The position numbers were made by a program. From Escherichia coli (lineage in GTDB: Bacteria; Pseudomonadota; Gammaproteobacteria; Enterobacterales; Enterobacteriaceae): a DNA stretch of 64,000 nt. Below are positions 12,701-15,700 of the stretch, one piece after another; the stretch's first letter is position 1, and every line of letters starts with the position of its first letter. The DNA lies in NCBI RefSeq assembly GCF_041886205.1, contig NZ_CP169029.1; one strand, written 5' to 3'.

Positions 12701-15700
12701 CAACGGAGGCTAATGGCATGAAATTGACGCTGAAAAACCTTAGCATGGCGATCATGATGAGTGGAATGATCATGGGAAGCAGTGCAATGGCGGCGGACAG
12801 CAACGAAAAAATAGTCATCGCCCATCGCGGTGCCAGTGGATATTTGCCGGAGCATACGCTGCCAGCAAAAGCGATGGCGTATGCGCAGGGAGCGGATTAT
12901 CTGGAACAGGATTTGGTGATGACCAAAGACGACCATCTGGTTGTCCTGCATGACCATTATCTCGATCGTGTTACTGATGTTGCCGATCGTTTCCCGGATC
13001 GGGCGCGCAAAGACGGTCGTTACTACGCGATAGATTTCACGCTGGATGAAATTAAGTCGCTGAAATTTACCGAAGGTTTCGATATTGAAAACGGTAAAAA
13101 AGTGCAGACTTATCCGGGGCGTTTCCCAATGGGTAAGTCCGACTTCCGGGTGCACACCTTTGAAGAAGAGATTGAATTTGTTCAGGGGTTAAATCACTCA
13201 ACCGGAAAAAATATCGGTATCTATCCAGAAATTAAAGCGCCGTGGTTCCATCATCAGGAAGGGAAGGATATTGCGGCAAAAACGCTGGAAGTGCTGAAGA
13301 AATATGGTTACACCGGTAAGGACGACAAAGTTTATTTGCAATGTTTTGATGCTGATGAGCTGAAGCGTATTAAGAATGAGCTGGAACCTAAAATGGGCAT
13401 GGATCTCAATTTGGTACAGCTGATTGCCTATACCGACTGGAATGAAACGCAGCAGAAACAGCCGGACGGAAGCTGGGTTAATTACAACTACGACTGGATG
13501 TTTAAGCCGGGTGCTATGAAACAGGTGGCGGAATATGCTGATGGTATTGGCCCGGATTACCATATGTTGATTGAGGAAACATCGCAGCCGGGTAATATCA
13601 AACTCACTGGCATGGTGCAAGATGCTCAGCAGAATAAACTGGTAGTGCATCCTTATACCGTGCGGTCAGATAAACTGCCTGAATACACTACTGATGTGAA
13701 TCAGTTATATGATGCTCTGTATAACAAAGCGGGTGTAAATGGGCTATTTACTGATTTCCCTGATAAGGCAGTAAAATTTCTTAATAAAGAGTAATGCTAC
13801 TGCAGGATGGCGTTCATGCGCCATCCTCTGCTAAAACGAAATAATGCTTCTACCGGTTATTCTATTCATTAACCGGTGCATCCTGTTAAAAAAGATGCCA
13901 ACATATTTGCGTAAAACTCATTCGTTAAGAAAGCTAACACTGGGCATTGTTATTCCTTAAACAGTATGAATTGGGTTCAATAATAAATTTTATTGCAGTT
14001 TATACTGTAAAGTATTATTCGTATTTCGGAAAAGTAAAGAAAATATTAATGTATCTTATTAATTTATCATATTGTTCTTGAGTGAATGCTGTTTGCACAC
14101 CTTCAGGACAATATTCACCAGTAATAACCAGTTGTCCATTGCTGTGTTGTACCATTAAACCTTTTTTTTCCTTTGGATCTTCAAACTTAGAATTATCAAA
14201 CGTGAAGATGTTATTTTCCTGTTTTGAGTAAGCAAAGAAATCTCGTGTATAGCTGAAACTATCATTTATTAATGGTGCTAACTTTTTGTCGGCGATATCG
14301 ATAAGCTCACCACTTAATTTATTGATGTATTTCATTTGATTCAATTTTTTCTGCGCTTGTACAATTTGCTCGTAGGTATTTTTAATTTTTTTAGAAGAAT
14401 TCTTGAATATATCATAGCGTTCCTCGGAGGATGTGTATTTGTACCCTTCTGTATTTTTCTCAGAATGTAATAGCAGGTCTGTATATTCTTTTTGTTTGCT
14501 GTGAAGTTGACTTTTAATACTTTCCTCACTGCTGATCTTATGATGTTTATCAGAGTCGTTTGTTTTTGAAATGTCTTTTTCTGTCAGTGTCTGGTCCGTG
14601 TTGTGGATATTTTCTTTTGCAACATGCTCATTGATGATGTTAATTGCAGCTTCATATTCATTTAAGTTTATTGTTCTTTCTGAAAGAAACCCTTCTTTGC
14701 TTTCGATACTCAAAACACCTTCGTTGTTTTCACCTCGGGTAAAGGTAAGGGTATAGGGTTCATAATCCGCTGCAAATTCATTTTTATACGTTATGACATG
14801 TTCGACAAAATGTCTTATTGGTACGAAACCATAACTGTGAACGTCAATTTCTTGGGTCTTGATGCTATCAATTGCATCTGAGGCTTTCGTGAAAAAAGCC
14901 AATAAATTAGCTATGTTGTCTGCTGAGGTTGATAACCCGTATCTACTTTGAGATATTTTTAGAAACTCATCGCAAAAAATCTCAAGTTTCGCGGTTTGTT
15001 GTGATTCTTTGTAAACTTCTACTGGTTGCAATTTATTATTTTGTAAAAGATTACAGCGAGATAAGTGAATAGATGTATTTGGCATAAATGATTCCTTGTA
15101 ATGTGAGTTAACAAGATACAATTTAATCTTTGCAGAATATATTCACTATCAAATTTAGCTCATTTTATTACGAAGACCTTTACGCATGTTAGAAAGTATC
15201 ATTATTGTTAATAAACACGGTAATAATTAACAAACAGATGTTTATAACTTCCCTGACAAGTTATTAGGTAACCCACTTGAAGATTGAGAATGGCTTCAGA
15301 GTAAACTGTGTACTGTTCGCCGGAGTGTCATTACTCTCAACAATCGGTTTTGACAGTGAGTCGGGCGCTTCATACCGGTTTCTACCTGGAGTCATTGTCA
15401 CTTCCCTAAACTGGATAAATATATATCGCTAATTCACAACGTGGACCAAAATCAGATGAAAACGCATTATTACGCATGGTAAAGCCTACAGGCCAACTAA
15501 GTGTGGCTAATCAGGCAATCTTACATTTGTCATCAATCTCATGTCTCACATCAAATTTTTCCACTCACCACGAGTTGTTCCGTACACGTTTGTAGTAAAA
15601 ACAGTGGACTGCCTTCTACCGGCTTTTCTTTAGCCAACAACGAAATCTGTCGATAGAAGGTTGGTTCGAGAGGAACGGAACACAATTCACCTGCAATGGT

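What the first reader, a model, noticed from the sequence alone, without database searches (positions are those of the whole stretch)
13795..15550. AT-rich segment with about 430 bp of non-coding DNA upstream of the orphan gene
The glpQ stop at 13794 is followed by about 220 bp of AT-rich DNA, the orphan gene, then a further 430 bp non-coding region (15122..15550) before the LysR gene stop. That 430 bp region has a GC-richer patch at about 15290-15410 (GGCTTCAGAGTAAACTGTGTACTGTTCGCCGGAGTG...GAGTCGGGCGCTTCATACCGGTTTC). A leader this long is unusual for E. coli and could hold a promoter with xenogeneic-silencing (H-NS-type) sites, a small RNA, or a decayed gene remnant marking an insertion junction. 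I found no direct repeats or integrase to define the boundaries.
Basis: seen in the sequence. Interest (0 to 1): 0.45.

Follow-up and report, generated by a model that had tools for sequence, protein, structure and literature searches.

The report
Small AT-rich islet with gene debris
The AT-rich stretch is a 1.7 kb strain-variable piece of accessory DNA wedged between glpQ and a LysR regulator gene in some E. coli, and its long "non-coding" part is a mix of a decayed inaA-like gene end, a conserved 43-codon reading frame and the likely control region of the orphan gene: an ordinary small genomic islet.

Summary
Window 13827-15541 (1,715 bp, 33.8% G+C against 51.6% for the window) is one clean indel. 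About 1,044 of 5,426 complete E. coli genomes and cryptic clade I carry it, always at this locus with the same ends. K-12-type E. coli, E. whittamii and Escherichia sp. E1V33 have an identical empty site (…GCGCCATCC|TGTCTCAC…). It is therefore most likely an insertion between the glpQ hairpin and the LysR stop codon. There are no direct repeats, integrase or tRNA, and no donor was found.

The 430-465 bp spacer lies wholly inside the islet and has three parts:
- 15389-15501, + strand: a relic of the last ~31 codons, stop codon and 19 nt of an inaA-like gene. It scores about 13 sd above shuffles and lies in the fastest-evolving flank of the spacer.
- 15264-15395, the GC-richer patch: a 43-codon ORF on the − strand with a good Shine-Dalgarno match, found only in E. 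coli.
- 15086-15263: 27% G+C.

The last two parts form the least variable block of the islet, so I read them as the orphan gene's promoter and leader region. No Rfam family, convincing small RNA, strong promoter or terminator was found. H-NS binding and transcription could not be tested. Interest is low to moderate.

The parts
13795..13826 (+). Ancestral 3' tail of glpQ with a 22-nt perfect hairpin (13805-13826, GGATGGCG-TTCAT-GCGCCATCC). It is shared by genomes with the empty and the filled site.
   Evidence: It is present in K-12 (L001), L006, E. whittamii (L016) and Escherichia sp. E1V33 (L014).
13827..15541 (.). The islet: a 1,715-bp indel of 33.8% G+C. One T is ambiguous at the junction, so 13828-15542 is equally valid.
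   Evidence: Boundaries come from BLAST and direct reading against the empty sites. About 1,044 of 5,426 genomes carry it, single copy, always at this locus.
13852..13898 (.). Two adjacent hairpins inside the left end of the islet (13852-13877 and 13878-13898). They lie at the 3' end of the orphan transcript on the - strand.
   Evidence: Fold z = -3.5 on the - strand and -4.7 on the + strand. These are the strongest structure signals in the sliding scan.
14015..15085 (-). Orphan ORF of 356 aa, starting at ATG 15085. It has no family match and homologues only in E. coli and clade I.
   Evidence: It is open in 8 haplotypes. pN/pS is 0.2-0.6 in the N- and C-terminal thirds for deeper pairs. The AlphaFold2 model was unusable, with pLDDT 43.7.
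14475..14625 (-). Hypervariable centre of the orphan ORF.
   Evidence: 30% of sites are segregating, against 7-10% elsewhere in the CDS. pN/pS exceeds 1 in most informative pairs within E. coli, on very few synonymous changes.
15086..15263 (-). Proximal spacer of 178 bp with 27% G+C and low variability. It is the presumed promoter and 5' leader of the orphan gene.
   Evidence: Composition. It has 6.2% segregating sites against an islet background of about 10%. Only weak promoter-like hexamers were found.
15264..15395 (-). The GC-richer patch: a 43-codon ORF (ATG 15395, stop 15264-15266) with a GGGAAG Shine-Dalgarno match at 15401-15406. It is the least variable stretch of the spacer.
   Evidence: 46% G+C; Shine-Dalgarno duplex of -6.5 kcal/mol, in the 1st percentile of islet positions. 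Gene callers call it as a 43-aa gene in L023, L024 and L025. Its cluster has 75 sequences, and its commonest allele is on at least 1,000 contigs, all from E. coli. There are 0/132 differences between clade I and four E. coli haplotypes. Binomial p is about 0.01.
15389..15501 (+). Relic of the 3' end of an inaA-like gene: about 31 codons, stop codon at 15480-15482, and 19 nt downstream.
   Evidence: It aligns without gaps to inaA at 18407-18519 with 64.6% identity, score 66 against shuffles of 23.2 +/- 3.4. tblastn gives 27.3 bits against a shuffled maximum of 22.3. The majority haplotype matches 14 of 26 residues. NCBIfam InaA gives E = 0.049. It is the best tblastx hit of the spacer in the whole 64 kb window.
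15502..15541 (.). Unassigned 40 bp between the relic and the right junction.
   Evidence: No significant similarity to the DNA downstream of inaA.
15542..15550 (-). Ancestral 9 nt between the junction and the LysR stop codon.
15551..16429 (-). LysR-family regulator gene, the orthologue of Z3495 of O157:H7 island OI-97. It runs in the same direction as the 43-codon ORF and the orphan gene.
   Evidence: PMC10819331.

Best explanation
Window 13827-15541 is a small, horizontally acquired, AT-rich accessory islet. It was inserted by illegitimate recombination between the hairpin that follows glpQ and the stop codon of the convergent LysR regulator gene. It now segregates in E. coli and cryptic clade I.

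The long 'leader' is not one functional unit. It is the inner right-hand part of the islet and has three pieces:
1. The 146 bp next to LysR (15396-15541) consists largely of pseudogene debris, the tail of an inaA-like gene on the + strand, and changes fast.
2. The GC-richer patch is a 43-codon frame on the - strand with a good ribosome-binding site.
3. The 178 bp of 27% G+C lies directly upstream of the orphan gene.

Pieces 2 and 3 are the best conserved block of the islet. I infer that they carry the orphan gene's promoter and leader, that this region is probably bound and silenced by H-NS like other AT-rich foreign DNA, and that it possibly includes a translated upstream small ORF.

The islet sits between the LysR stop and the hairpin that normally follows it 9 nt later, and no terminator is recognisable in between. 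I further infer that LysR transcripts can read through into the small ORF and the orphan gene.

Shown: the indel, its boundaries, its distribution, the relic, the ORF and the conservation pattern. Inferred: the direction of the event, promoter function, H-NS silencing and read-through.
For: Boundaries and polarity:
- The junction is identical in K-12, other E. coli, E. whittamii and Escherichia sp. E1V33.
- All filled haplotypes align end to end with the same ends.

Foreign character:
- The islet has 33.8% G+C against 51.6% for the window.
- The orphan protein has no relatives outside E. coli and clade I among 5.8 billion proteins or 1.84 billion cluster representatives.
- It is single copy, so it is not a repeat element.

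Population states among 5,426 complete genomes:
- islet plus intact LysR: 710
- islet plus K-12-type LysR-MFS deletion: about 334
- empty site plus intact LysR: 509
- empty site plus K-12-type deletion: about 2,800
- no LysR at all: about 1,070

inaA-like relic.

Conservation:
- Segregating sites are 3.8% in 15264-15395, 6.2% in 15086-15263 and 13.7% in 15396-15541.
- The islet background is about 10%; the binomial p for 15086-15395 is 0.001.

Ribosome-binding sites.

No terminator-like site between LysR and the orphan gene.

Three tandem hairpins at the far end of the orphan transcript.
Against: - No target-site duplication, terminal repeats, integrase or donor sequence was found, so the insertion mechanism is unknown.
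- The direction of the event rests on only two outgroup species. Clade I, the closest sister lineage, carries the islet.
- No promoter reaching 9 of 12 consensus positions with normal spacing occurs on the - strand of the spacer.
- Matches to the H-NS motif are only mildly enriched (6 against about 2 expected), and only one is in the spacer.
- Low variability could come from recombination or hitch-hiking among few haplotypes rather than from constraint. One 132-nt window inside the CDS is equally invariant.
- Frameshifted variants of the 43-codon ORF exist.
- Neither the ORF nor the orphan gene was found in the held supplementary text of four EHEC RNA-seq and ribosome-profiling papers. Those files may be truncated.
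Confidence: 0.6

Rival explanations
1. The GC-richer patch is a genuine small-protein gene (43 aa, - strand, 15395..15264), and that gene is the constrained element of the spacer. The orphan gene downstream may be secondary.
For: - It has an ATG start and the best Shine-Dalgarno match in the islet (-6.5 kcal/mol, 1st percentile).
- It is intact in all ten haplotypes, including clade I TW10509, where the large orphan ORF is split into 70 + 232 aa.
- There are 0/132 nucleotide differences across five deep haplotypes.
- In the L007 lineage all three changes are silent: TAA to TAG plus two synonymous changes.
- Gene callers predict it independently in many assemblies.
Against: - The complementary + strand frame is equally open over the same 54 codons, so the two strands cannot be told apart.
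- Both changes in the window lineage alter the protein.
- Frameshifted and fused variants circulate (P0053-P0056).
- It has no homologue outside E. coli and no family match.
- It was not found in the held supplements of the Sakai intergenic small-gene ribosome-profiling study.
- Its start lies antisense within a pseudogene relic, which suits a shadow ORF.
Confidence: 0.3
2. The segment is ancestral to Escherichia. The empty site arose once by deletion and spread, so the window shows the old state rather than an insertion.
For: - The islet carries a relic of a gene family native to this very locus (inaA), which could be what remains of an old local duplication.
- Every other difference at this locus is a deletion. 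The K-12 LysR-MFS loss lies between 9-bp repeats, and the B2-type allele keeps 18 nt of the MFS gene.
- The right end of the islet is as diverged between haplotypes (about 11%) as synonymous sites of LysR (about 0.10) and approaches those of glpQ (0.13-0.17), which argues that it is old.
- Clade I carries the islet.
Against: - E. whittamii, Escherichia sp. E1V33 and thousands of E. coli share exactly the same junction with only 1 nt of ambiguity. This would need a single deletion allele to cross species whose flanks are only 87-91% identical.
- The composition is strongly foreign.
- No homology to LysR, the MFS gene or the inaA body remains in the rest of the islet.
Confidence: 0.15
3. The patch encodes a structured small RNA or antisense RNA on the + strand. 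This could be, for example, the RNA partner of a type I toxin-antitoxin pair or a regulator of the - strand transcript.
For: - The + strand of 15280-15420 folds into a long imperfect hairpin at -43.5 kcal/mol, z = -2.9, with 1 of 200 shuffles as stable. The - strand gives z = -0.2.
- The U/C polymorphism at 15296 keeps a pair with G15389 only on the + strand.
Against: - Rfam gave no match in the spacer at E<=1.
- In a sliding scan the window ranks 10th of 108, and a window inside the CDS scores as well.
- There is no compensatory double change, and G15378A breaks a pair.
- No terminator-like tail follows the hairpin and no good promoter precedes it.
- The + strand ORF starts with TTG, has a weak Shine-Dalgarno match (-3.7 kcal/mol), and is never called by gene finders.
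Confidence: 0.06
4. The whole spacer is functionless debris. Its uneven conservation reflects mosaic recombination history among a handful of haplotypes.
For: - Part of it is demonstrably a pseudogene relic.
- Only about 7 distinct full-length haplotypes are available.
- Diversity jumps sharply between adjacent blocks, as expected from recombination breakpoints.
- No promoter, terminator or RNA family was detected.
Against: - The orphan ORF needs a promoter. The only candidates are this spacer or read-through from LysR, and the ORF stays intact in strains where the LysR promoter is deleted (L009, L010).
- The block 15086-15395 is less variable than the CDS it precedes.
Confidence: 0.25

Closest known systems
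O-islands of E. coli O157:H7 EDL933 (segments absent from K-12), in particular the neighbouring OI-97 (z3494 MFS, z3495 LysR; PMC10819331)
   Same: It is a short segment absent from K-12 at the glpQ-inaA locus. It is present in O157:H7 at 94.4% identity. It carries a hypothetical gene.
   Different: OI-97 is ancestral DNA that K-12 lost by deletion between 9-bp repeats. The present segment is a separate indel with its own boundaries and foreign composition, and outgroup species have its empty site. I did not find it named or studied in the literature searched. Whether it has an O-island number, presumably the next one, was not verified.
Xenogeneic AT-rich islets silenced by H-NS (established knowledge from Salmonella and E. 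coli, recalled, not tested here)
   Same: It is 1.7 kb at 33.8% G+C in a genome region of about 51%. Its presence varies between strains. It carries an orphan gene. The upstream region reaches 27% G+C.
   Different: No binding data are available. The high-affinity H-NS motif is only mildly enriched.
Taxonomically restricted (ORFan) genes of E. coli
   Same: The 356-aa and the 43-aa products have homologues only in E. coli and clade I, and no family match.
   Different: The large ORF shows moderate purifying selection in two domains and a hypervariable centre. It is therefore not simply noise, but no function can be assigned.
Pseudogene remnants at the same locus in K-12 (yfaH, the LysR C-terminal fragment; NCBIfam NF007272)
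   Same: Both are short 3'-end relics of neighbouring gene families left by rearrangement.
   Different: yfaH is about 92% identical in DNA to the intact window gene and has an obvious deletion junction. The inaA-like relic is only about 65% identical to any Escherichia inaA. It is therefore much older, or came from another taxon.
Upstream ORFs and leader peptides in long bacterial 5' leaders
   Same: A short ORF with its own Shine-Dalgarno match lies 178 nt upstream of, and in the same direction as, the main ORF.
   Different: No attenuator or terminator structure lies between them. Translation is unproven.

Membership tests
Classical genomic island (integrase-mediated) | Integrase or recombinase gene in or next to the segment | tested here: not met
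   The only ORFs are the orphan (no family hit) and small frames. The neighbours are glpQ and LysR.
Classical genomic island (integrase-mediated) | Insertion at a tRNA or tmRNA gene, with flanking direct repeats | tested here: not met
   No tRNA in 9000-21000. There is only 1 nt of ambiguity at the junction and there are no flanking repeats.
Classical genomic island (integrase-mediated) | Deviant composition and variable presence among strains | tested here: met
   33.8% against 51.6% G+C. About 19% of complete genomes carry it.
H-NS-silenced xenogeneic DNA | AT content well above the genome average over several hundred bp | tested here: met
H-NS-silenced xenogeneic DNA | H-NS occupancy and derepression in an hns mutant | not testable with these tools
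   No ChIP or expression data were reachable. The motif scan is only suggestive.
Known RNA family (Rfam) | Covariance-model match at or near the gathering score | tested here: not met
   Only two chance-level hits in 13600-16700, and neither lies in the spacer.
Dispersed repeat (REP/BIME, ERIC/IRU, MITE, IS) | Multiple copies per genome | tested here: not met
   The median is 1 place per genome for the whole segment (megablast) and for the spacer in distant mode.
Type I toxin-antitoxin locus | Small hydrophobic toxin ORF with a ribosome-binding site, plus an overlapping antisense RNA | tested here: not met
   The only frame with a hydrophobic stretch is on the + strand, starts with TTG, has a poor Shine-Dalgarno match and is never called. 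Evidence for an antisense RNA is weak.
InaA / lipopolysaccharide kinase gene (NF007383), as a pseudogene fragment | Significant collinear similarity to the family, in frame, ending at the stop codon | tested here: met
   InaA residues 191-215 match, the residue after the match is followed by a stop in both sequences, and the stops are in register. tblastn gives 27.3 bits against a shuffled maximum of 22.3, and the DNA z-score is about 13.
InaA / lipopolysaccharide kinase gene (NF007383), as an intact gene | Full-length kinase domain | tested here: not met
   No similarity upstream of residue ~186. NCBIfam scores 13 bits against a cut-off of 235.
Small-protein gene (sORF) | Conserved intact frame with a start codon and ribosome-binding site | tested here: met
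Small-protein gene (sORF) | Purifying selection on the protein, or direct evidence of translation | tested here: inconclusive
   There are only 5 segregating sites, 3 silent and 2 replacement. Frameshifted variants exist. No translation data were found.

The most novel reading that the evidence does not exclude
The conserved 43-codon frame (15395..15264) is a real microprotein gene restricted to E. coli and clade I. It arose in foreign or relic DNA, with its start antisense to a dead inaA-like gene. It is expressed as a 3' extension of the transcript of the virulence regulator Z3495 (LysR). Islet-positive and islet-negative strains would then differ in what that regulator's mRNA carries.
Probability: 0.12. 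Interest if true: 0.5.

Novelty: new member of a known kind. Interest (0 to 1): 0.25.

Why it matters
The main value is clarification. It gives exact boundaries and a likely polarity for a small accessory islet at the glpQ-inaA locus of E. coli. It shows that a "long leader" is partly gene debris. It also flags a well-conserved 310-bp block, including a 43-codon ORF, as the piece worth testing.

The islet sits directly behind z3495, a LysR regulator reported to control LEE virulence genes in O157:H7 (PMC10819331). Read-through into the islet could therefore matter for strain comparisons and for interpreting deletions at this locus.

The analysis also indicates that the neighbouring LysR-MFS pair ("OI-97") is ancestral and was lost in K-12, rather than acquired by O157.

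Tried and rejected
- Family searches on the orphan protein gave nothing usable: NCBIfam, PADLOC, PHROGs and Pfam.
- Two very large protein searches found only relatives from E. coli and clade I. The single weak outlier, P0035, did not check out.
- The AlphaFold2 model of the orphan reached only pLDDT 43.7, so I ran no fold search.
- DNA searches of plasmids and phages for a donor found only a misfiled E. coli chromosome and chance 50-nt hits.
- A 17-nt similarity between the left end of the islet (13847-13863) and the LysR 3' end (15613-15629) suggested a duplicated LysR tail. It is within the range of shuffles, and gapped and protein-level tests were null.
- A tandem-duplication model (LysR-MFS-inaA duplicated, then overwritten) has no support beyond the inaA relic.
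- A 21-residue resemblance of 15328-15390 to GlpQ scores 21.2 bits against a shuffled maximum of 25, so it is not significant.
- Searches with the open frames of the spacer gave no further matches. These used NCBIfam, PHROGs, Pfam and the 5.8-billion protein index.
- Consensus scans for promoters and terminators, plus my own laxer scan, found nothing convincing in the spacer.
- The + strand hairpin idea was downgraded after the sliding-window control.
- Literature and supplement searches for Z3496/Z3497, ECs3122/ECs3123, OI-98 and the peptide returned nothing relevant.
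Full report
**1. The observation**

The window here is the E. coli glpT-glpQ / inaA locus. glpQ ends at 13794. An open frame on the − strand runs 14015..15121 from a TTG. The better start is ATG 15085, which has an AAGGA ribosome-binding match. A LysR-family gene occupies 15551-16429 on the − strand, followed by an MFS transporter gene (16581-17771, +) and inaA (17850-18500, +).

G+C falls from about 0.47-0.55 in glpT-glpQ to 0.27-0.38 across 13800-15200. 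It recovers to 0.40-0.43 around 15200-15500. By segment the values are:

| Segment | G+C |
|---|---|
| islet 13827-15541 | 33.8% |
| orphan CDS | 33.1% |
| proximal spacer 15086-15263 | 27.0% |
| patch 15264-15395 | 46.2% |
| whole window | 51.6% |

**2. It is one clean, strain-variable indel**

A megablast of 13700-15650 against 5,426 complete E. coli genomes found the full segment in 1,044 of them. It is single copy, always on the chromosome at this locus, at 93-100% identity. Most other genomes match only the two flanks, brought together.

K-12 (L001) matches the window up to 13827 and resumes at 15539. Reading the sequences gives these junctions:
- Empty site: …GCGCCATCC|TGTCTCAC…
- Filled site: …GCGCCATCC[T CTGCT … AATCTCA]TGTCTCAC…

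The insert is therefore 13827-15541 (1,715 bp), with one ambiguous T. All filled haplotypes examined align end to end with the same ends. These are O157:H7, five other E. coli lineages and cryptic clade I TW10509.

The left junction lies directly after the 22-nt perfect hairpin that follows glpQ (13805-13826). The right junction lies 9 nt from the LysR stop codon.

**3. Polarity**

A scan of one genome per species with the LysR protein recovered the locus in E. whittamii (L016) and Escherichia sp. E1V33 (L014). Their flanks are 87-91% identical to the window. Both have intact LysR-MFS-inaA and exactly the same empty junction.

A synthetic "empty junction + intact LysR" query is matched over its whole length by 509 E. 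coli genomes. Combined, the states among 5,426 genomes are:

| State | Genomes |
|---|---|
| islet + intact LysR | 710 |
| islet + K-12-type LysR-MFS deletion | ~334 |
| empty + intact LysR | 509 |
| empty + K-12-type deletion | ~2,800 |
| no LysR (B2-type) | ~1,070 |

The shared empty site in outgroup species, the foreign composition and the lack of any homologue elsewhere make insertion the better reading. Deletion is not excluded. Clade I carries the islet, and every other difference at this locus is a deletion.

No target duplication, terminal inverted repeat, integrase, tRNA or tandem array marks the ends. No plasmid or phage record carries the DNA.

**4. The orphan gene**

The 356-aa product has no Pfam, NCBIfam, PADLOC or PHROG match. 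Its only homologues are in E. coli and clade I. The structure model was too poor to use.

Averaged over the gene, dN/dS is about 1, but this hides structure:
- The N- and C-terminal thirds give pN/pS of 0.2-0.6 for the deeper comparisons.
- The centre (14475-14625) is hypervariable, with 30% segregating sites and pN/pS above 1 in most informative pairs within E. coli, on very few synonymous changes.

It looks like a real but weakly constrained gene. It is broken in some lineages:
- TW10509 has it split into 70 + 232 aa.
- One genome has an IS1 insertion.
- One contig has a junction to phage DNA inside it.

**5. Anatomy of the "non-coding" 456 bp inside the islet (15086-15541)**

(a) *inaA-like relic.* A scan of the open frames of the spacer against NCBIfam gave one weak hit, to the last 26 positions of InaA (E = 0.049). 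InaA is the gene 2.3 kb away. The follow-up was clear:
- tblastn of the window's InaA against the islet aligns residues 191-215 to 15402-15476. The score is 27.3 bits, against a best of 22.3 in 200 shuffles.
- At the DNA level, 15389-15501 aligns without a gap to 18407-18519 at 64.6% identity. The score is 66, against 23.2 ± 3.4 for shuffles.
- The TAA stop codons are in register, and similarity continues 19 nt past them.
- The majority haplotype is closer still: FSQLDKYISPIHKVGQNQVKTNYYAW* against FRQLEKYLEPIPKADWEQVKAYYYAM*, 14 of 26.
- It is the best tblastx hit of the spacer anywhere in the 64 kb window.
- Identity is 63-67% to every Escherichia inaA tested. The relic is therefore either very old or from another taxon.
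- Nothing upstream of it resembles the inaA body, and the rest of the islet does not resemble LysR or the MFS gene.
- The 146-bp flank that holds most of the relic (15396-15541) is the fastest-changing part of the spacer, with 13.7% segregating sites.

(b) *The GC-richer patch.* 15267-15429 is open for 54 codons on both strands.
- On the − strand there is an ATG at 15395, preceded by GGGAAG. The anti-Shine-Dalgarno duplex is −6.5 kcal/mol, in the 1st percentile of islet positions. This gives a 43-aa product, MTPGRNRYEAPDSLSKPIVESNDTPANSTQFTL(K/E)PFSIFKW(V/D)T.
- Gene callers predict it in independent assemblies.
- The cluster holds 75 sequence variants, and its commonest allele is on at least 1,000 contigs, all from E. 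coli.
- It has no relative or family elsewhere.
- It is intact in all ten haplotypes, with 0/132 nucleotide differences among clade I and four E. coli lineages. The adjacent 146 bp differ by 5-11% between the two major haplotype groups.
- Against a real gene: the antisense frame is equally open, the two changes in the window lineage are replacements, frameshifted and LysR-fused variants exist, and no translation evidence was found.

(c) *The proximal 178 bp.* This stretch is 27% G+C and has 6.2% segregating sites. Taken together, 15086-15395 has 16 segregating sites in 310 bp against a background of about 10% (binomial p ≈ 0.001). One window inside the CDS is as invariant, and there are few haplotypes. 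This is evidence for constraint, not proof.

**6. What was not found**

- Rfam at E ≤ 1 gave nothing in the spacer.
- Consensus scans found no promoter or terminator there. A laxer scan found only weak hexamer pairs.
- The + strand of the patch folds well (z = −2.9) and the − strand does not. In a 108-window scan, however, it ranks only tenth. The strong signals are the glpQ hairpin and two hairpins at the left end of the islet.
- The three substitutions in the patch give no compensatory pair.
- H-NS motif matches (≤2 mismatches) number 6 in the islet against about 2 expected, and only one is in the spacer.

**7. Mechanism proposed**

*Shown:* a foreign-looking 1.7 kb mosaic lies between the LysR stop codon and the hairpin that otherwise follows it.

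*Inferred:*
- The conserved block 15086-15395 is the control region of the orphan gene, possibly with a translated upstream ORF.
- The distal 146 bp is largely debris from the rearrangements that built or delivered the islet.
- The AT-rich DNA is likely bound by H-NS.
- With no terminator between LysR and the orphan, LysR transcripts probably continue into the islet and stop at the three tandem hairpins at 13805-13898.

**8. Comparison with what is known**

The neighbouring LysR-MFS pair is O-island 97 of O157:H7. Its LysR (Z3495) is reported to activate LEE genes through rcsF (PMC10819331). The present segment is a separate K-12-absent block next to it. I found no paper that names or studies it.

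It fits the general class of small AT-rich accessory islets with orphan genes. It fails the tests for an integrase-type island, a dispersed repeat, an Rfam RNA and a type I toxin-antitoxin locus. The inaA-like piece passes the test for a pseudogene fragment.

**9. Verdict**

This is a real feature, correctly observed, and largely ordinary. The new points are the exact boundaries, the probable polarity, the inaA-like relic and the conserved 43-codon frame. Interest is about 0.25.

Noticed in passing
window 14015-15085 (positions 14453 and 14486); L002, L005, L007-L011: RefSeq/PGAP marks the orphan gene 'frameshifted' in most islet-positive genomes although the frame is open. The reference protein (O157 WP_001301786.1) carries a compensated +1/-1 pair 33 nt apart, so the label is an artefact of the choice of reference.
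   Followed up: yes
window 15786-15794 and 17665-17673; L001, L014-L018: The LysR-MFS pair, published as the laterally acquired O-island 97, is present at the same locus in E. whittamii, Escherichia sp. E1V33, Pseudocitrobacter and Kluyvera. K-12 lacks it through a deletion between two 9-bp TTTATCTGC repeats, which left the yfaH fragment. It looks ancestral, not acquired.
   Followed up: partly
L003 5128-5199 (B2-type strain BH100): Genomes without LysR have the glpQ hairpin, then 72 nt of filler with no detectable match in the window, then the last 18 nt of the MFS gene and inaA. This is a third, independent deletion-type allele.
   Followed up: partly
window 14475-14625: The centre of the orphan ORF is hypervariable: 30% segregating sites, up to 25% pairwise difference from clade I, and pN/pS above 1 in most informative pairs within E. 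coli. The flanking domains are under moderate purifying selection.
   Followed up: partly
L023 about 5094-5774 (Logan SRR27947535), equivalent to window 14917: In one assembly the orphan gene is interrupted after about 56 codons by DNA carrying a phage antiterminator Q gene. This could be a prophage insertion or an assembly chimera.
   Followed up: no
H2, NZ_CM129914.1 1623593-1626318: An IS1A copy lies inside the segment in one canine isolate.
   Followed up: no
L012 (JAIJJM010000334.1): A 3.5 kb contig 96.8% identical to window 13691-17164 is deposited as part of a 'Collinsella sp.' metagenome-assembled genome. This is almost certainly E. coli DNA that was mis-binned.
   Followed up: no
L027 2615-3514 (strain 19KM1831): A 1-nt deletion in the A/T run just before the LysR stop gives a 299-aa LysR whose reading frame runs into the glpQ hairpin.
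   Followed up: partly
window 15264-15541: Diversity changes abruptly inside the islet: 0-2% in 15264-15395, against up to 11% in 15396-15541 between the two major haplotype groups. The latter equals synonymous divergence in LysR. This may mark an old recombination breakpoint or different ages of the two parts, and it remains unexplained.
   Followed up: partly
window 15328-15390 (+ strand frame): A 21-residue stretch (SLLSTIGFDSESGASYRFLPG) resembles GlpQ residues 114-134 with 48% identity. At 21.2 bits it is within the range of shuffles, so it is not significant. It is noted only because glpQ is the adjacent gene.
   Followed up: yes
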